A stretch of DNA of 60,692 nucleotides from Bacteroidota bacterium (GCA_034659855.1 JAYEIA010000199.1:1-60692), one strand, 5' to 3'; positions 21,886 through 33,449 are shown, counted from the stretch's first letter. Numbers and translations: made by a program. Notes: generated by a model not told the origin, from the sequence alone.

Positions 21886-22008
21886 CCCTGCGGTATTACA
21901 AACCAATTCCCAAAATTGCCGTAGGTAAAACCTATTGGTAGCCCCGTATGTAGCCGTAGGCGGAAAGTGGGGTTAATATGACAAATTCCGTTTTAATCCC
22001 GTAGGGAT
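21886..22008. repeat. Cluster of short GC-rich mini-hairpins sharing a CCGTAGG core
   Basis: CCGTAGG occurs at 21919 and 21954. ATCCCGTAGGGAT is at 21996..22008. Variants are CCCTGCGG at 21886 and CCGTATG at 21944. All lie in otherwise AT-rich intergenic DNA. Confidence 0.6.
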
Positions 22009-26977: not shown

Positions 26978-28156
26978 TTATTCATTCAGAATACTAACTT
27001 CGGTGTTTTCTTTGGGGTCAACCAGTGCCTCCGAAACCAGTTTTGTATCTTCCGGAAGCCCGTTAAAGAGTAAGGTTTTTTCATTGGTTTTCAGAATATT
27101 TATTTTTTGTTTTAGAAGTCTGCCCTTTTCTACAATAAATACCTCGTTGTGGTTTATTACCGCATCTCTGTCCAAAAGCATGGCATTTTTTACTTCGATG
27201 TTTGAGAATGTGGCTTGCATGTATTCTCCTTGGTATATTTTTTCACCTTTGGGTGAAGTAAGGCTGATAAAAATCGTGACGGATTGTGTTTGAGGGTCTA
27301 CAAAATCGGAGACTCTGTTTACTGTTCCCTTGTACTCTTTTTTTCCGTGGTCGGTAGTAACTTTTACGTGGTTTCCTTTGCGAATGAATCGAGCATCTGA
27401 GGTTTTAACGGAGGCTTCGAGTTCCAAACGGTTGGTTCGAATGAGTTTGGCGATTTTTCCGCCGGGGTTTGCAATGCCGCCAACTTCGATATATACATCT
27501 GAAAATGAACCGGAGAACGGAGCATAAATAAAGTATTTTTGCATACGAACCTGCTCACTTTTTATGGAATAGTAATCGCTGAGGATGTTTCTTCCGGTTA
27601 AGTATATTTTTTCCTGACTGGATTTAATTTCCGGCAAGTCGGGTATATTTTTGTCGATATCTGTTTTATCAAAAAATGTTAACCAATTTTGGTAGCTCTC
27701 CGGATAGTCAATTTTAAAATCCGGCAACAGATTAGCCACGGAGTTAAGAAATCTACTTTTTCTTGCTTTGAGTGCGTAGGCGGCTTCGGTATTGAAAATA
27801 CGTACAAGCAGTTGGCCTTTTCTGAACGATTGCCCTTTTTTCAGCGGAACATTTCCGGGAAGTATTTTTCCTTGCACTTCGGCACTTAAATTAATGAAAT
27901 GGCGTGTTGATATTCTTCCGGTTGCCACGGTTTCTGATTTCTGATTTTTGTATTTTACCGGGGTTACTTTTACATGCGTTTTGTGTTTCTTATTTTCAAC
28001 CGTCTTGGGTTCCGGTTTCATGATGCTCAAGCCTTTCATGGAGATTACTCCGAGTATAATTACCAGTACAACTCCGGCTATTGCAATATAATGTTTTTTC
28101 TTCATGGTATTCGTTCTTTTGCTGAATTCAAAATAGTTTTCGTAAAATTCGGACAT
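26978..28156 (-). CDS. RND efflux periplasmic adaptor (membrane fusion protein, HlyD family)
   Basis: Single N-terminal TM (HYIAIAGVVLVIILGV) followed by lipoyl/beta-barrel-like repeats. The start is ambiguous among ATG 28156 (28 nt after a -7 box), ATG 28105 (MKKKH) and the ORF-track start 28186. Confidence 0.78.
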   Translation of the reverse strand: MSEFYENYFEFSKRTNTMKKKHYIAIAGVVLVIILGVISMKGLSIMKPEPKTVENKKHKTHVKVTPVKYKNQKSETVATGRISTRHFINLSAEVQGKILPGNVPLKKGQSFRKGQLLVRIFNTEAAYALKARKSRFLNSVANLLPDFKIDYPESYQNWLTFFDKTDIDKNIPDLPEIKSSQEKIYLTGRNILSDYYSIKSEQVRMQKYFIYAPFSGSFSDVYIEVGGIANPGGKIAKLIRTNRLELEASVKTSDARFIRKGNHVKVTTDHGKKEYKGTVNRVSDFVDPQTQSVTIFISLTSPKGEKIYQGEYMQATFSNIEVKNAMLLDRDAVINHNEVFIVEKGRLLKQKINILKTNEKTLLFNGLPEDTKLVSEALVDPKENTEVSILNE

Positions 28157-28183
28157 GAATTTTCCCTCAAATAAGCAATGATA

Positions 28184-28191
28184 CAAAAATA
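28184..28191 (-). promoter_or_regulatory. -7 promoter box (TATTTTTG) for the RND operon
   Basis: The minus strand reads TATTTTTG, upstream of the adaptor gene. Confidence 0.4.
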
Positions 28192-28445
28192 GTAATATTT
28201 TTTGTGTTAGATTAATATTTTGAGAATTTTTATAGGTTGTTTAGTGTTGTTTAACAATGAGTATATGTGTTTTGTGTATATACTGTCTGAACGGAAATAC
28301 ACAAAATTAGAAATGTTTTTTTTTGCGATATTTCTATTTTTTAAAATTCGTTGATACAGTGGCATCTCCAAATTAAAAAAAATAAAAATCTCATCAAAAA
28401 AAACTCATTTCGTAAAATTCGTCTGTTTTCGCTCAGAAACTATAT

Positions 28446-28581
28446 AAAAATCAGGATGTTAGGACACAATAGTATAAAAACAACAATAAAATACACAAAA
28501 GTTGCACGAACAGCAGTTAGAAAAATTAAAAATCCATTAGACAACATATCACAAAATATAGAAAAAGACAAACCACCATAA
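28446..28581 (+). pseudogene. C-terminal remnant of a tyrosine recombinase/integrase
   Basis: MLGHNSIKTTIKYTKVARTAVRKIKNPLDNI matches the LGHssikTTeiYthv....i.sPld C-terminus, including the catalytic Tyr. The upstream part of ORF 28351..28581 is low-complexity K/I-rich, with no remaining integrase body. Confidence 0.6.
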
Positions 28582-28687
28582 AGTTATAATTTCTTGATTG
28601 ATTTTGAGATAATTTAATATCACCAACACAAAAAACGCAACTTTTTAATTAACTCATTATCAATTTATTAGTAATATTAATGCCTAA

Positions 28688-28718
28688 AGTTTAGAATAGA
28701 GGTGTTTTTTTTTGAATA
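28688..28718. repeat. About 30-nt sequence shared with 59585..59613 (AGTTTAGAATAGAGGTG-Tn-GAATA)
   Basis: Direct comparison shows an identical 17-mer plus a T-run (9 T here, 7 T at 59602) plus GAATA. TAATATT..GC similarity lies upstream. Confidence 0.7.
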
Positions 28719-28921
28719 TGAAGATTATAAGACTTTTACAAGATAATATTCAACCTCCGGAAAAACAACGTCATTTTAAACCATAGCCATATTAATTGCA
28801 AATATAATAAGGCCGCTTGGTGCAATGCGCCAAGCCGGACGTTGTGGGTAGTTTGACATAACAACGCCAATAAAATCAGTAGAGAAAATTTTAAAAAAAT
28901 AAAGACAAAGAATAATTTAAT

Positions 28922-28929
28922 TATCTTTG
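28922..28929 (+). promoter_or_regulatory. -7 promoter box (TATCTTTG) upstream of the R-M gene
   Basis: Matches TAnnTTTG, 18 nt upstream of ATG 28947. Confidence 0.45.
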
Positions 28930-29197
28930 AAAATAAAAAAATATAAATGTCAATATTTCAAAATTCAGTACTTAATAAATATTTGAAAACGCAAGATGAA
29001 AAGAAGATTGATGACATGTATTTTCAATTTACTTCATATTTTCATAATGCCGAAATACAAGAAAATATCCGAAACTCTAAGGAAGAACAATTTCAGGAAG
29101 GATTTTTAAGAGAATTGTTTGTCAAGATTTTGGGATATACTTTAAATCCTAAACCGAATTTCAATCTAACGACTGAACTTAAAAACGAAAAAGGAGC

Positions 29198-29204
29198 AAA
29201 AAAA
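29198..29204 (+). repeat. A7 homopolymer at the frameshift site (A_AAA_AAA in the upstream frame)
   Basis: GGA GCA AAA AAA CAG. One extra A (A8) would give GAKKTDGAILKNGK... and fuse ORF A to ORF B. The overlap window of the two frames is 29183..29219. Confidence 0.75.
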
Positions 29205-30659
29205 CAGACGGTGCAATCCTGAAAAACGGAAAAGCACTATCCGTAATTGAACTTAAAGGAACGGACACCAAAGATTTAGACAAAATAAACGAACAGGCTT
29301 TCAATTACAAAAATAATCATACTGACTGTGTTTATGTGATTACTTCAAATTTTGAGAAACTGCGTTTTTTTATTCATAATGCAGTTGCTCATATTGAATT
29401 TAACCTGTTTACACTTACAAAAGAAGAATTTAAAATATTTTGGCTTTGTCTGAATGCCGATAATTTATTGGGCGGAGTTCCCGAAAAGGTAAAACAAGAA
29501 AGTACGATAGTAGAAGAAAATGTAACCAAACAACTTTACAAAGATTATTCGGCTTTTAAACATGAGCTTTGGCAAAATATCTGTAAAAACCGACCCGATT
29601 TAGATAAACTTCTGTTGTTTAAGAAAACGCAAAAGCTATTGGATCGATTTCTGTTTATATTTTTTGCCGAAGACAGCGGATTACTGCCGCCAAACTCAAT
29701 TTCGAGAATGGTAGAACGCTTTGAGCAACTTATTGAATTAGACGCAGAAAAACCACTTTACGAAATTTTTAAACAATATTTTGGTTATATAAACAAAGGC
29801 AGGAAAGGCAAAACAACACAAGATGATATTTTTGCATACAACGGCGGTTTATTTCAGCCCGATGAATTGTTGGACAGCCTGATAATTGATGATAAAATAT
29901 TAAAACCTCACGTAGAAACAATGACAGCTTACGATTTTAAGAGCGATGTTGATGTAAATATTTTGGGGCATATTTTTGAAAACTCGCTCAATGAAATTGA
30001 AAACGTAACCGCACAACTCGAAGGACAGGAATTAGACAAAAGCAAAACCAAACGAAAAAAAGACGGCGTTTTTTACACACCCAAATACATTACAAAATAC
30101 ATTGCAGAAAATACCGTAGGCAAACTTTGCGAAGAGAAAAAAGCTGAATTAAATATTACAGATGAGCGATTTACCGAAGCCGGGAAACGTTCTAAGAAAG
30201 GAATTGCAGATTTAGAAGCATACAGAAACCGGTTGCTTGAACTAACTATTTGCGACCCTGCATGTGGTTCAGGAGCTTTCCTAAACCAAGCACTTGAGTT
30301 TTTAATAAGTGAACACAGATATATTGACGAACTTTTAGCGGCTTATCATAAAGTACCTATAGTGTTGAGTAATATAGAAAACCACATTCTGGAAAAAAAT
30401 ATTTACGGTGTGGATATTAACGACGAAAGTGTAGAAATTGCAAAACTTTCGCTTTGGCTGCGAACCGCACAGCGCGGCAGAAAACTAACATCGTTAAATA
30501 ACAACATAAAATGCGGAAACTCACTGATTGACGACCCTGAAGTAGCAGGAGAAAAGGCATTTAATTGGCAAAAGGAATTTCCGCAGGTTTTTGAAAAAAA
30601 GGATAAAAAGGCTTGGCATATTATCTTTGCAATATATAATTCACGTTATTCGACGGATG

Positions 30660-30679
30660 CCGACGGGTTAACCCGTCGG
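30660..30679. repeat. Perfect 20-nt palindrome CCGACGGGTT/AACCCGTCGG (hairpin 1)
   Basis: Read directly from the sequence. It encodes DGLTRR within the Y1 module. Confidence 0.9.
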
Positions 30680-30915
30680 TTTGCCGGTGATACAGCAAAT
30701 AAACCCGGTTTTATTGCCCGAACTTATCCGGAACTGCTCCCGGAGCAAGAAATTATTATTGCCGAAGAATTAGCAAAAGCAGCCGAAGAATACAGCTTAA
30801 ACATTACGGCATGTAATATTTGCAAAGACCACGTACATGCCATTATAGTATGCGAAGAAGATGAGTTATCGTATCTTACCGGAAAATGGAAAGGCCGAAG
30901 TGCATTTACATACAA

Positions 30916-30935
30916 CCAACGGGTAAACCCGTTGG
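30916..30935. repeat. Palindrome CCAACGGG-TAAA-CCCGTTGG (hairpin 2, compensatory variant)
   Basis: Read directly from the sequence. The G>A change in the left arm is matched by C>T in the right arm relative to hairpins 1 and 3. Confidence 0.9.
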
Positions 30936-31094
30936 CTGTATCAAAAAAGCAAAAAGCCCAATACGCCGACGGAACCAAAGAAAAATTTTGGGCCAAAAGT
31001 TTCAAACCCGTATTAATAAAAGACAAAGAACAATACCAAGCAACCGTAAACTACATAAAAAACAACCGAACAAAACACAAACTGCCACCCCAAA

Positions 31095-31114
31095 CCGACG
31101 GGTTTACCCGTCGG
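31095..31114. repeat. Palindrome CCGACGGG-TTTA-CCCGTCGG (hairpin 3)
   Basis: Read directly from the sequence. The arms are identical to those of hairpin 1. It encodes DGFTRR just after the Y1 Tyr motif. Confidence 0.9.
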
Positions 31115-32702
31115 CTCAACCAAATGATATGCACTCATAGACACGCATTCCGTCCGGAACACAAAGGCGGTTTTGATGTGATTATTGGTAATCCGCCGTA
31201 TGTGAGAAGTCGAGAATTAATGCAAGAAAATGAAAAAACATATCTTGTAAATTATTATAAAACTGCATCGTATCAGTTAGATTTATACAAATTATTTATT
31301 GAAAAATCTTTGAACCTAATTAATAACAAGGGCAAATTATCCTTTATAACACCCTCGGTGTTCTTATCAAATGATTATGACAAACCACTTCGTAAATTTA
31401 TCTTAGAAAATTATAATTTAGTTCAAATATCAACAAGTGATAAAGACATTTTTACAGATGCAAGCGTAAAAACTGTCGTTTTTACAATCGACAAAAATAT
31501 TGCAAATCAGGAAATTAAGTTTTTTAAAATTGTGAAAGGTGATTTTTTACAAACAAAATTAATTTCAAAGAATGTATTTATAAATCAAGACTATACAATA
31601 AATGAAAACATAAATTTAAGTTCTTTAACAATTTTAAATAAGTTACAAAATTGCTCAAAACTTGATGAGTTTTTTGTTGTCAAAAATGGAATTAAAGTAA
31701 GAAAAGACTTATTATATTCTTCCCAAATAGATACAAATTATAAATCATTTCTTTTAGGTAAAAATATCAATATTTTCTCAATATAATCTAACAATATTTA
31801 TATCCATTACCTGCCAGAAAATGAAAAATTATATACAAATCAGGCTTTTAGAACAAAAGATATTTTTGAACAAGAAAAATTGATTGTAAGACAAATTTTA
31901 GGTAAAAGAATTATTACAACATTTGATAATGAAAATTATTACACAGACCAAACAACCTATGTAATAAACAAAAAAGATAATAATTTTAATTTATTGTTCT
32001 TGCTGTCTGTTATGAACTCAAAATTAATGTATTACTACTTTAAAAATACTTTTTCTGACAATAAAGTTACTTTTCCAAAAGTAAAACGTTCTCAAATTTT
32101 AAAGTTTCCAATAAAAAAAACTGAAAACCAACAACCATTCATAGAAAAAGCAGACAAAATGCTTTCACTAAACAAAAAATTACAAACCGAAAAAGACAAC
32201 TTTTCAAAAACCCTGCAAGAAGAAAAAGGCATTGAAAAATTAAGCAAAAAATTACAAAACTTTCAAAATTTAGAATACGAAGAATTTAAAAAAGAGTTAC
32301 GAAAAAAGAAAATAAAAATCAGTCTCGGCAACGAAAACAACGAGTGGAGAGAATATTTTAATACAGCTAAACAAAAGATAAACGGTTTGCAAAACCAAAT
32401 AAATCAAACCGATACAGAGATTGACAAAATGGTTTATGAATTATACGAACTTACGGCAGAAGAAATTGAGATTGTGGAAAATTCGGTGAAATAAAATGGA
32501 TTTATAAAGCAGAAATCCCAATACGTAAAGAAATTAACGACCGGGCAAAAAGTGAAAAAATTGATATTAATAAATTAGTTTCCGAATTAGTTGAAAATTT
32601 CTATAAAACAGTAAAAAATATAAATAAAAACGCAGCATTATAAAGATTAAGGACGTGGAATTAGCATAAACGCTACACAAACGACTTTACTTTAAACTCG
32701 GC

Positions 32703-32735
32703 AAAAAAAAATAAGCCCGATAAAGGCTTATTTTT
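32703..32735. terminator. Bidirectional rho-independent terminator between convergent genes
   Basis: AAAAAAAA-ATAAGCC-CGATAAA-GGCTTAT-TTTT. The 7-bp stem is flanked by an A-run and a T-run. It lies 31 nt downstream of the minus-strand gene that ends at 32766. Confidence 0.65.
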
Positions 32736-32765
32736 AGAGTTTTATATCACTGTAGGACAAGCGAA

Positions 32766-33449
32766 TTATTCAAATCTGATTAACTCAGAAGATCCCATGA
32801 GTTTATCTTTTGAATTGTAGGTTTCTGATTTTACAACTCCTACACCTTCGGTAATCCAGGAAATAGTTTTTAAGGTAATGGTTACAAAACCGGCCTTTGA
32901 TTTTATATCCTGTGATATTTTAAGGCAACTGAAGGTTCCGGCATCGGTTGTAACTTTCTCTTTGGCCAAAACTTCTCGGTTTTCAATGGTTGTAACAAAA
33001 TCTAAGGTCATCATTCCGGTGTTTATTGACACGGTTACCGAACCGTCATCTAAAGTCGTGCCGACACCCATATTTTTGGGGTAGCTGATGTTTTCAAAAT
33101 CGAATGATATTTGGGTTTCTTCGTAGTTTTCATATTGTTCTTGGTTCAAGTATTGGCTCATATCTACATTAAAGACTCCGTTTTCGCAGTAAAAATTCAG
33201 GGTATCTCTGTTTTCTTCTTTCCCTTTTTTGTCTTTGTAAATTTGCTCAATTTTGTACCGGGTTTGTCCGTCTTTTACGGTTTTATCCAGTAATTTTTGA
33301 CTGTGGTAAGATTCTGTTTTGCCTTTTTTGTTTTTATTAACGTATTCCGCAACTTTGTTTCCGTTGTTTATAATGTAAGCTGTACAATCTTGTGCTTGTA
33401 CTGAGAACAAAGCGATAACTCCAATTAGACTAAGAATGATTTGTTTCAT
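32766..33449 (-). CDS. Hypothetical secreted protein
   Basis: The start is chosen at MKQIILSLIGVIALFSVQAQ (signal peptide, ATG at 33449) rather than the ORF-track start 33566. The protein is beta-rich and has no recognised motif. Confidence 0.55.
   Translation of the reverse strand: MKQIILSLIGVIALFSVQAQDCTAYIINNGNKVAEYVNKNKKGKTESYHSQKLLDKTVKDGQTRYKIEQIYKDKKGKEENRDTLNFYCENGVFNVDMSQYLNQEQYENYEETQISFDFENISYPKNMGVGTTLDDGSVTVSINTGMMTLDFVTTIENREVLAKEKVTTDAGTFSCLKISQDIKSKAGFVTITLKTISWITEGVGVVKSETYNSKDKLMGSSELIRFE

What the first reader, a model, noticed from the sequence alone, without database searches (positions are those of the whole stretch)
30660..31114. Three related palindromes with a compensatory arm change lie inside the coding frame of the Y1 module
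The palindromes are CCGACGGG..CCCGTCGG at 30660..30679 and 31095..31114, and CCAACGGG..CCCGTTGG at 30916..30935.

The middle copy differs by G>A in one arm and by the matching C>T in the other. This conserves the hairpin rather than the peptide. The middle copy is also read in a different codon phase (QRVNPLA, versus DGLTRR and DGFTRR).

Copies 1 and 3 have identical arms. Their starts are 435 nt apart, and together they bracket the HUH and Tyr motifs. This resembles the subterminal hairpins and REP sequences recognised by IS200/IS605 TnpA and RAYT proteins. Palindromes carried in frame within an ORF also recall the Rickettsia palindromic elements.
Basis: seen in the sequence. Interest (0 to 1): 0.65.

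Follow-up and report, generated by a model that had tools for sequence, protein, structure and literature searches.

The report
REP-like hairpins inside a restriction gene
The three palindromes are real DNA-level, REP-like mobile hairpins sitting in frame inside a RAYT-like transposase domain that is itself nested in a (here broken) restriction-modification gene. Dozens of related genes from other bacteria show the same arrangement, which I could not find described in the papers I could search.

Summary
Three 8-bp-stem palindromes lie at the stated coordinates, where none is expected by chance, and there are no others in the 60-kb window.

They lie in a 189-codon Y1/HUH cassette (30599-31165). 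The cassette is inserted in frame between the EFPxxFxK linker and the GGFD-NPPY motif of an Eco57I/MmeI-type single-chain restriction-modification gene. That gene is dead here: it has a -1 frameshift in an A7 run and a Gln>TAA change.

All 87 related loci fetched carry the same cassette at the same site.
- 57 of 61 full-length genes carry perfect GC-rich palindromes in frame.
- The palindromes occupy seven discrete loops of the protein and cluster within 800 nt of the gene ends.
- One palindrome is read in two phases (TDGLTRR and NRRVNPS), and changes in one arm are matched in the other.
- Synonymous sites are more conserved inside the palindromes than outside.
- 73% of the 4-nt loops are self-complementary.
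- The window's palindrome type also occurs at 120 or more mostly intergenic places in metagenomes.
- Close RM homologues without Y1 lack the palindromes.
- One stand-alone Y1 relative is flanked by them.

Best reading: these are REP-like elements cognate to a RAYT-like domain, and they survive inside the gene only in stop-free phases. In-frame REPs inside RAYT genes are published (Quentin 2018). The nesting in a restriction gene appears undescribed. The IS200-like "bracketing" idea is not supported.

The parts
28947..32494 (+). Single-chain type IIG (Eco57I/MmeI-like) restriction-modification gene. It is a pseudogene here, split into three ORFs (28947-29222, 29336-31786, 31880-32494).
   Evidence: Pfam gives MmeI_hel, MmeI_Mtase, Eco57I, N6_Mtase and TaqI_C. 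Three-frame translation shows the pieces are collinear with intact 1,170-1,270-aa homologues.
29196..29202 (+). A7 run where the frame slips by -1, inside the PD-(D/E)xK nuclease part (..EKGAKK|TDGAIL..VIELKG). An eighth A would restore the frame. This is either a real lesion, phase variation or a homopolymer sequencing error.
   Evidence: Sequence read and frames. Homologues read SKKADGAIL...VIELKG.
31784..31786 (+). In-frame TAA that replaces a Gln codon, upstream of the TaqI_C specificity domain.
   Evidence: The window reads FSI*SNNIYIHYLPENEK. The near-identical specificity domain of P0275 reads FSIQFNNTYIHYLPENEK.
30599..31165 (+). 189-codon Y1/HUH (RAYT-like) cassette. It is inserted in frame between the 10-residue linker QKEFPQVFEK and GGFDVIIGNPPY (methyltransferase motif IV).
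   Evidence: Pfam Y1_Tnp scores 36.7 bits against a cut-off of 23. NCBIfam REP_Tyr_transpos scores 53.5 bits, below its cut-off of 80. The AF2 model has pLDDT 86.6. The top 30 Foldseek hits are all Y1 transposases. 74 Y1-less alleles in the set have exactly 10 residues between AF[DNE]W and GGFD.
30660..30679 (.). Palindrome copy 1 (slot 1), CCGACGGGTTAACCCGTCGG, read as A-DGLTRR. It lies in the loop after beta-strand 1 of the Y1 domain.
   Evidence: The region has low pLDDT (55-59) in the model.
30916..30935 (.). Palindrome copy 2 (slot 2), CCAACGGGTAAACCCGTTGG, read as NQRVNPLA in another phase. It lies between the HUH and Tyr motifs. An outer imperfect stem extends it to 30910-30941.
   Evidence: The same slot is occupied in 43 of 61 full-length homologues.
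31095..31114 (.). Palindrome copy 3 (slot 3), CCGACGGGTTTACCCGTCGG, read as TDGFTRR. It lies just after the Tyr helix.
   Evidence: The slot is occupied in 22 of 61 homologues.
30830..30838 (+). HUH motif (His-Val-His).
   Evidence: Both His residues are invariant in the 68-sequence alignment A2.
31052..31078 (+). Catalytic Tyr motif YIKNNRTKH.
   Evidence: Tyr, Asn (Y+4) and His (Y+8) are invariant in A2.
31190..31201 (+). Methyltransferase motif IV (NPPY), directly downstream of the cassette.
   Evidence: Invariant GGFD..GNPPY in alignment A1; sequence read.

Best explanation
The three palindromes are copies of a short (20-24 nt) perfect-dyad, REP-like DNA element. The cassette that carries them is a RAYT-like Y1/HUH single-strand-DNA nuclease/transferase domain, and the palindromes are most likely its cognate hairpin substrates.

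Shown here:
- The cassette is a conserved module, always inserted at one codon junction of a type IIG restriction-modification gene family.
- Lineage-specific versions of the palindrome sit in and immediately around those genes, at a few discrete loops.
- They are read in whichever phases lack stop codons.
- They evolve by paired changes in both arms.
- They are nearly absent from Y1-less alleles of the same gene.

Inferred:
- The Y1 domain binds and cuts or joins these hairpins on single-stranded DNA, as E. coli TnpA_REP does with REPs, and copies them preferentially nearby (in cis).
- Selection on the restriction enzyme then keeps only insertions that are in frame, stop-free and in surface loops. 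This explains why they appear 'carried in the coding frame'.

In this window the host gene carries a frameshift and a nonsense codon, and two of the three loops have drifted from GTTAAC. This copy is therefore most likely an inactive relic.
For: Anatomy:
- Pfam and NCBIfam hits.
- Y1 fold with invariant HUH and Tyr.

Family:
- At least 120 full-length proteins have Y1 inside Eco57I/N6_Mtase.
- All 80 genome loci and the 7 close-clade loci carry the cassette.
- 61 have full-length ORFs.

Palindrome density (per kb):
- 1.65 in the cassette region, 0.33 in the rest of the gene and 0.064 outside.
- Gradient: 0.017 far upstream, 0.19 near upstream, 0.56 in the gene, 0.48 near downstream, 0.038 far downstream.

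Slots and phases:
- Seven discrete slots; 57 of 61 genes hold at least one palindrome.
- One element is read in two phases: TDGLTRR/NRRVNPS and NKGINPL/TRGLIPL.

DNA-level conservation:
- A compensatory variant was predicted, then found.
- Covariation: no shuffle reached the observed covariation score (0 of 500).
- Synonymous-site conservation is 0.75 inside against 0.51 outside.
- 102 of 140 loops are self-complementary, against 6% expected.

Insertions:
- They appear as +5 to +40 aa insertions into otherwise fixed 25-aa and 21-aa loops.
- They are present in a Y1+ allele but absent from its about 95%-identical Y1-less counterpart.

Link to Y1:
- Three Y1-less genes have no palindromes.
- The peptide proxy gives 0.486 against 0.058 hits per 1000 aa.
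- The one confirmed stand-alone Y1 relative is flanked on both sides by AACAAGGGGTAGNTACCCCTTGTT.

Dispersal:
- The window's own palindrome type is a dispersed, mostly intergenic repeat in metagenomes. It occurs at 120 or more loci, and 85 of 122 occurrences lie outside any long ORF.

Precedent:
- In-frame REPs inside tnpA_REP genes of subclass 2.4 (PMC6006769).
Against: - No binding or cleavage was tested, so the enzyme-substrate link is inferred from association.
- The module scores below NCBIfam's RAYT cut-off (53.5 against 80). By sequence it matches IS200/IS605 TnpA structures better than 4ER8.
- In this window there are no copies outside the cassette in 60 kb, and none flanks the gene.
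- The dispersed metagenomic copies cannot be assigned to genomes that carry the RM-Y1 gene. Only 4 of 122 lie in or next to one.
- Perfect dyad symmetry, including the loop, is not required for a hairpin substrate. It may point to a mechanism I have not identified.
- In L082 the slot-1 peptide DGLTQR persists after the DNA palindrome has decayed, so some peptide-level tolerance or constraint exists.
Confidence: 0.75

Rival explanations
1. The cassette is an autonomous, ORF-preserving IS200/IS605-like element, and copies 1 and 3 are its left- and right-end hairpins. The Y1 domain would excise or insert the segment between them, toggling the methyltransferase in frame.
For: - Copies 1 and 3 have identical arms, share one phase and lie 145 codons apart.
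- Presence or absence of Y1 needs at least 20 changes on a tree of the upstream 520 aa.
- Some Y1+ and Y1-less alleles are 94-96% identical upstream.
- The cassette always sits at one codon junction.
Against: - Slot 1 is occupied in only 7 of 61 genes.
- Beta-strand 1 and the C-terminal 50 aa of the domain lie outside the bracket.
- DNA homology with a Y1-less allele breaks at AFDW and GGFD, not at the hairpins.
- No slot-1-to-slot-3 deletion product appears among 152 proteins.
- In the near-identical allele pairs the whole central block, including the specificity domain, differs (39% identity). Allele recombination therefore explains the patchy distribution.
- The hairpins are identical perfect dyads, not distinct imperfect left and right ends.
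Confidence: 0.07
2. The palindromes are selected as mRNA structures. They might pause translation so that the nested domain folds, or control mRNA stability. On this reading they are not DNA elements tied to the Y1 activity.
For: - They are transcribed as part of the ORF.
- They form stable stems.
- They sit at domain or loop boundaries.
- REPs elsewhere are known to act as RNA elements (PMC3733652).
Against: - G-U pairs are almost unused (6 of 290 cells).
- The loops are self-complementary, which an RNA hairpin does not need.
- The same elements occur in intergenic flanks and at 120 or more intergenic metagenomic sites.
- They appear as tandem arrays and as recent insertions in many different loops.
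- They are missing from Y1-less alleles that have the same domain boundaries.
Confidence: 0.06
3. The palindromes are kept because the gene uses them. They could be cis sites through which the RM-Y1 enzyme regulates or rearranges its own gene, or through which the flanking copies mobilise the whole restriction gene.
For: - Slot 2 has been occupied across deep divergence (43 of 61 genes).
- Identical 26-nt palindromes occur at slot 3 of proteins that are only about 60% identical.
- Copies lie on both sides of several genes.
- Every locus has a different genomic neighbourhood.
Against: - Many genes lack flanking copies. Only 5 of 61 have them upstream and 10 of 61 downstream.
- No empty-site comparison was possible.
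- No deletion or inversion products were seen.
- Occupancy of most slots is sporadic, as expected for tolerated insertions.
Confidence: 0.08
4. Conservation is at the protein level only. On this reading DGLTRR, DGFTRR and RVNP are functional peptide motifs, and the palindromic DNA is incidental.
For: - The peptides xDG[LF]TR[RQ] recur at slots 1 and 3 in the close clade.
- In L082 the slot-1 peptide survives without the palindrome.
Against: - One DNA element gives unrelated peptides in two phases.
- Compensatory changes alter the peptide (D>E with R>P).
- There is codon-level conservation, and there are intergenic copies.
Confidence: 0.02

Closest known systems
RAYT (TnpA_REP) genes with REPs inserted in frame inside the gene: subclass 2.4 of Quentin et al. 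2018 (BMC Genomics 19:475, PMC6006769), which is Bertels group 4
   Same: - A Y1/HUH domain whose cognate palindromes flank the gene and also sit inside it.
- The internal copies do not break the frame and lie mainly between the HuH and Tyr motifs.
- The gene is low in copy number.
- It occurs in Bacteroidota.
   Different: - Here the Y1 is not a gene of its own. It is a cassette nested in a restriction-modification enzyme.
- The motifs differ: DH[VIL]H and YIxNNRxKH, against NH[IFV]H and YIxNNP.
- The palindromes are short perfect dyads without a GT[AG]G foot.
- They also colonise six or more loops outside the Y1 part, including the loop between the catalytic D and ExK of the nuclease.
E. coli REP/BIME with TnpA_REP (PDB 4ER8; Ton-Hoang 2012, PMC3333891; Messing 2012, PMC3479197)
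   Same: - The predicted fold matches 4ER8 best by superposition (TM 0.51, rmsd 3.7 A).
- The hairpin repeats are associated with the gene.
   Different: - E. coli REPs are imperfect, carry a 5' GTAG tag, are extragenic and number in the hundreds.
- Here the elements are perfect dyads concentrated in and next to the gene.
- Activity was not tested here.
IS200/IS605 insertion sequences (IS608, ISDra2 TnpA)
   Same: - The same Y1 fold and catalytic motifs.
- These are the best sequence matches among solved structures (2EC2, 2XM3).
- The substrates are hairpins.
   Different: - There are no distinct subterminal left and right ends outside a tnpA gene.
- There are no multiple identical element copies.
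- Y+4 is Asn rather than Gln.
- The cassette boundary is not at the hairpins.
Rickettsia palindromic elements (RPEs) and other intragenic REPs (Di Nocera et al. 2013, PMC3733652)
   Same: Palindromic repeats inserted in frame in ORFs that stay functional, presumably in permissive loops.
   Different: - RPEs are about 100-150 bp and spread over many unrelated genes. No dedicated transposase is known for them.
- Here the elements are 20-26 nt and concentrated in the gene that encodes their likely enzyme.
- The CGTC-tagged families of that paper have unpaired tags and A/T stem bases that these elements lack.
MmeI/Eco57I-type single-chain (type IIG/IIL) restriction-modification enzymes
   Same: - The host gene has the N-terminal PD-(D/E)xK nuclease, the helical spacer, the gamma-class N6-adenine methyltransferase (DPACGSGAF ... 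NPPY) and a TaqI_C-type specificity domain.
- Specificity domains are shuffled between alleles.
   Different: - Described members have about 10 residues where this family carries a 189-aa Y1 domain.
- A third allele class carries a 73-80-aa insert, probably helical, at the same point.

Membership tests
Y1 HUH transposase superfamily (Pfam PF01797) | Profile match above the curated threshold | tested here: met
   36.7 bits for the module and 35.6 bits for the ORF, against a cut-off of 23.
Y1 HUH transposase superfamily (Pfam PF01797) | HUH metal-binding motif, one catalytic Tyr on the C-terminal helix and a polar residue at Y+4 | tested here: met
   HVH, Y and N(Y+4) are present in the window and invariant in 68 aligned sequences.
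Y1 HUH transposase superfamily (Pfam PF01797) | The fold | tested here: met
   The AF2 model has pLDDT 86.6 and pTM 0.83. The 30 best Foldseek PDB hits are all IS200/IS605 or REP Y1 transposases.
RAYT / TnpA_REP | Match to the curated RAYT model (NCBIfam NF047646) | tested here: not met
   It is the best NCBIfam hit, but at 53.5 bits it is below the cut-off of 80. The Y motif is YIxNNRxKH rather than YIxxNP.
RAYT / TnpA_REP | Gene flanked by its cognate palindromes | tested here: inconclusive
   Met in relatives: L211 on both sides, and L001, L018, L023, L034, L061 and L087 on one or both sides. Not met in this window, where there are no copies outside the cassette.
RAYT / TnpA_REP | Binds and cleaves REP hairpin ssDNA | not testable with these tools
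   This needs biochemistry.
REP (repetitive extragenic palindromes) | Short palindromic unit of 20-40 nt that forms a stable hairpin | tested here: met
   8-bp stems with 4-nt loops, at -10 to -11.6 kcal/mol.
REP (repetitive extragenic palindromes) | Many dispersed, mainly extragenic copies within a genome | tested here: inconclusive
This window has no extragenic copy.
IS200/IS605 insertion sequence | Distinct subterminal hairpins at both ends of an element that exists in several copies, with tnpA inside | tested here: not met
   The hairpins lie inside the domain. The cassette boundary lies elsewhere. Slot 1 is absent in most relatives.
Type IIG (Eco57I/MmeI-like) restriction-modification enzyme | One polypeptide with a PD-(D/E)xK nuclease, a gamma-class N6A methyltransferase (motifs I and IV) and a C-terminal specificity domain | tested here: met
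   Pfam domains. The motifs DGAIL..VIELKG, DPACGSGAF, NPPY and TaqI_C are present. The window copy is interrupted twice, so it is a pseudogene member.
Rickettsia palindromic elements | Repeat families of about 100-150 bp inserted in frame in many unrelated genes | tested here: not met
   The elements are 20-26 nt. Within the fetched loci they are confined to one gene family and its flanks.

The most novel reading that the evidence does not exclude
A restriction enzyme with a built-in REP transposase. On this reading the Y1 cassette is not a passenger but makes the single-ORF restriction-modification gene a self-contained selfish unit. It would seed the host chromosome with its own palindromes (the dispersed AAC[CT]GACGGGTTAACCCGTC[AG]GTT family would be its progeny). 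It would use palindromes at the gene's borders and inside it to move or rearrange the gene, or its specificity block, between alleles and genomes. The perfect dyad symmetry, loops included, would reflect a cut-and-rejoin reaction at the dyad centre rather than simple hairpin recognition.
Probability: 0.12. Interest if true: 0.85.

Novelty: new variant of a known kind. Interest (0 to 1): 0.6.

Why it matters
REPs and their RAYT enzymes are among the most common repeats in bacteria that remain unexplained. How REPs spread, and what the host gains, are still open questions.

This gene family places the presumed enzyme, its substrates and a selectable host function (a restriction-modification enzyme) in a single ORF. 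It also provides natural controls: alleles without the Y1 cassette lack the palindromes.

That makes several things directly testable in cultured Flavobacteriia that carry intact copies:
- cis-preferential spread of the hairpins;
- which protein loops tolerate a 7-13-codon hairpin insert;
- whether the HUH domain changes restriction or methylation behaviour.

The family also shows that short mobile palindromes can be a steady source of loop insertions in a large enzyme, even between the catalytic residues of its nuclease.

For this window alone the element is a decaying relic and has no likely current function.

Tried and rejected
A metagenome pattern scan and locus flanks were used instead.
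- The word-indexed protein search with the 180-aa module alone found nothing, because of its length window. The exhaustive search and the full-length query did find relatives.
- Rfam gave no credible RNA family in 28000-33000.
- The Y1 module has no match in plasmids or phages.
- I considered the CGTC-tagged REP superfamily (PMC3733652), because the arms contain CGTC. I rejected it: those REPs have unpaired tags, A/T at the stem base and CCA tails, and most lineages here use CAAGGGG arms.
- I considered excision between the same-phase copies 1 and 3. No such product was found.
- I considered a clean 'cassette-only' indel between near-identical alleles. In the pairs examined the whole central block, including the specificity domain, differs. 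Recombination therefore suffices, and independent cassette mobility is unproven.
- The Y1 gene next to a Y1-less allele (L208) belongs to another RAYT subclass (NHLH, YIHQNP) and carries no family palindromes, so I treat it as coincidence.
- The 'stand-alone' P0142 turned out to sit in a degraded RM gene. Only P0172 (L211) is a confirmed free-standing relative.
- Other hairpins in the window (21886-22008 and about 28816-28840) are not members of this family.

Full report
**Observation.** A degenerate search allowing two mismatches finds only these three in 60,692 nt and none in 100 shuffles. The arms are otherwise rare in the window. Copy 2 carries the paired G>A and C>T change. Copies 1 and 3 are 435 nt apart in one phase, and copy 2 is in another. 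As ssDNA the three copies fold at -10 to -11.6 kcal/mol, with z-scores of -3.5 to -5.3. Comparison with relatives shows that each is an eroded copy of a 24-nt perfect palindrome, AACCGACGGGTTAACCCGTCGGTT.

**Context in the window.** The palindromes lie in ORF 29336-31786.
- Pfam finds MmeI_hel, MmeI_Mtase, Eco57I and N6_Mtase in this ORF, with a Y1_Tnp domain in the middle. The next ORF holds TaqI_C.
- NCBIfam ranks REP_Tyr_transpos first for the module, but below its cut-off.
- The gene is a broken single-chain type IIG restriction-modification gene. The nuclease part (from 28947) is cut off by a -1 slip in an A7 run at 29196-29202. A TAA at 31784-31786 replaces a Gln that the near-identical specificity domain of P0275 retains.
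- The Y1 part is a 189-codon cassette (30599-31165). It sits between the linker QKEFPQVFEK and GGFDVIIGNPPY.

**The cassette is a family feature, not a local accident.**
- A full-length search returned at least 120 proteins of about 1,200 aa, all with PF01797 inside the Eco57I/N6_Mtase region.
- All 80 best species-representative loci carry it. They come mostly from Bacteroidota, but also from Chlorobiota, Balneolaceae, Spirochaetota, Gastranaerophilales, Gracilibacteria and a Thiohalospira MAG.
- 61 of 88 genes are full-length ORFs.
- HUH, Tyr, Asn(Y+4) and His(Y+8) are invariant.
- The AF2 model has pLDDT 86.6 and pTM 0.83, and its 30 best PDB matches are all Y1 transposases. 4ER8 (TnpA_REP bound to a REP hairpin) superposes best.
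- By sequence the closest solved relatives are IS200/IS605 TnpAs.

**The palindromes are a DNA-level element.** Perfect GC-rich hairpins (stem of 8 or more, loop of 4) occur at these densities:

| Region | Hairpins per kb |
|---|---|
| Cassette region | 1.65 |
| Rest of the gene | 0.33 |
| Outside the gene | 0.064 |
| More than 800 nt upstream | 0.017 |
| Within 800 nt upstream | 0.19 |
| Within the gene | 0.56 |
| Within 800 nt downstream | 0.48 |
| More than 800 nt downstream | 0.038 |

- In the 61 full-length genes, 140 hairpins (stem of 7 or more) fall at seven discrete positions.
- One sequence is read in two phases, giving unrelated peptides. CCGACGGGTTAACCCGTCGG gives TDGLTRR or NRRVNPS. 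ACAAGGGGATTAATCCCCTTGT gives NKGINPL or TRGLIPL. For TTAA-centred elements the third phase contains a stop.
- From the protein P0006 alone I predicted that its slot-1 peptide TEGLTPQ must be ACTGAGGGGTTAACCCCTCAGT. The DNA (L081) shows exactly that.
- I built a 30-sequence alignment anchored on the protein, not on the hairpins. In it 83% of cells pair, 7 of 10 pairs change on both sides, and no shuffle reaches the observed covariation score (0 of 500). Slid controls are far lower.
- Given identical amino acids, codons are identical in 75% of comparisons inside the hairpins against 51% outside.
- 102 of 140 loops are self-complementary (TTAA, CATG, TGCA), so the whole element is a perfect dyad.

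**They behave as insertions linked to the Y1 domain.**
- At the nuclease loop (SKKADGAIL...VIELKG, 25 aa in most genes) and at a 21-aa loop before the methyltransferase, hairpin-bearing genes carry 5 to 40 or more extra residues. Some of these are tandem 33-nt units.
- Many Y1-less alleles of the same restriction gene exist, with up to 75% identity across the junction and up to 96% identity upstream.
- Three of them examined as DNA have no family palindromes.
- Palindrome-type peptides outside the cassette are eight-fold rarer in 101 Y1-less proteins than in 106 Y1+ proteins.
- In two Y1+/Y1-less pairs the C-terminal tails are about 95% identical. Only the Y1+ allele has TMGLNPLP-type inserts there.
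- The free-standing relative P0172 is flanked on both sides by AACAAGGGGTAGNTACCCCTTGTT, and its stop codon lies in the loop of the downstream copy.

**Dispersal.** Of 122 occurrences, 85 are not covered by any ORF of 80 codons. Only 4 are in or beside an RM-Y1 gene, and only one locus holds any Y1 gene, which is of a different subclass. So this is also a dispersed REP-like repeat. Which genomes hold these copies, and whether those genomes carry the RM-Y1 gene, could not be established.

**What is not supported.** The IS200-like 'two ends' reading fails for these reasons:
- slot 1 is not a family feature;
- beta-strand 1 lies outside the bracket;
- homology with a Y1-less allele ends at AFDW and GGFD rather than at the hairpins;
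- no slot-1-to-slot-3 deletion product exists among 152 proteins.

The cassette's patchy distribution needs at least 20 changes on the upstream tree, against about 50-57 for shuffled labels. This could suggest mobility. However, in the near-identical pairs the whole central block, including the specificity domain, differs, so allele recombination is enough to explain it.

**Comparison with the literature.**
- Quentin et al. 2018 report REPs inserted in frame within tnpA_REP genes of subclass 2.4, between the HuH and Tyr motifs. This is the closest precedent.
- Di Nocera et al. 2013 list intragenic REPs and RPEs.
- Five full-text searches found no description of a Y1 domain nested in a type IIG enzyme.
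- Earlier notes from this scan report the same family in other genomes. I treat these as leads and have re-derived the points I use.

**Verdict.** The finding is real, and its main reading is right. The three palindromes are REP-like DNA elements tied to a RAYT-like domain, and the reading frame tolerates them because of where and in which phase they sit. The copy in this window is a relic in a dead gene. At family level the arrangement is a new variant of the known REP/RAYT kind. The enzyme-substrate link and the mode of spread remain inferred.

Noticed in passing
P0275, P0283, P0291, P0303, P0307, P0322, P0344 (proteins); locus L210: A third allele class of the same restriction gene carries a 73-80-aa insert, probably helical (..NPxIKEKNYQKAPExKPDY..EISKQVYEYAEK..), at exactly the codon junction where the Y1 cassette sits. 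This loop is therefore a general insertion hotspot. P0275's specificity domain is nearly identical to the window's.
   Followed up: partly
L157:880-1850: A different small Y1 gene (NHVH ... YITGQEEHH, like subclass 1.2 of Quentin 2018) is flanked by CCCCGGAC-GCCA-GTCCGGGG. Two copies lie upstream and three downstream, in the opposite loop orientation. That paper describes subclass 1.2 as lacking REPs.
   Followed up: no
L003:~560-720 (slot N1) and L068:6660-7140: Tandem arrays of the palindrome lie inside coding sequence. L003 has four 33-nt units (TMGLIPLPQQI) between the catalytic D and ExK of the nuclease. L068 has seven alternating palindromes at 62-70-nt spacing, in a gene whose frame is broken there.
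   Followed up: no
L086:7749-7810: The right arm of the slot-1 palindrome and its 3' flank are duplicated (STRQFSPG twice). This suggests slippage or repair events that start at the hairpin.
   Followed up: no
L060 (Candidatus Gracilibacteria MAG): A copy of the RM-Y1 gene in a Gracilibacteria genome reads as broken under table 11, presumably because that lineage reads TGA as Gly. It still carries two AACAAGGGGGT..ACCCCCTTGTT palindromes at slots 2 and 3.
   Followed up: no
window:21886-22008: A cluster of CCGTAGG-core hairpins, flagged by another first-stage note. On inspection they do not share the arms or the dyad structure of the palindromes studied here. L008's family palindrome does have a CCGTAGGG arm.
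   Followed up: partly
window:28351-28581 and 28816-28842: A tyrosine-recombinase C-terminal fragment and an imperfect GC hairpin (CTTGGTGC-AAT-GCGCCAAG) lie just upstream of the restriction gene. Together they suggest a small decayed accessory island.
   Followed up: no
L208:4833-5402: A RAYT of another subclass (NHLH, YIHQNP) lies 1.5 kb downstream of a Y1-less allele of the same restriction gene. No family palindromes are present there.
   Followed up: partly
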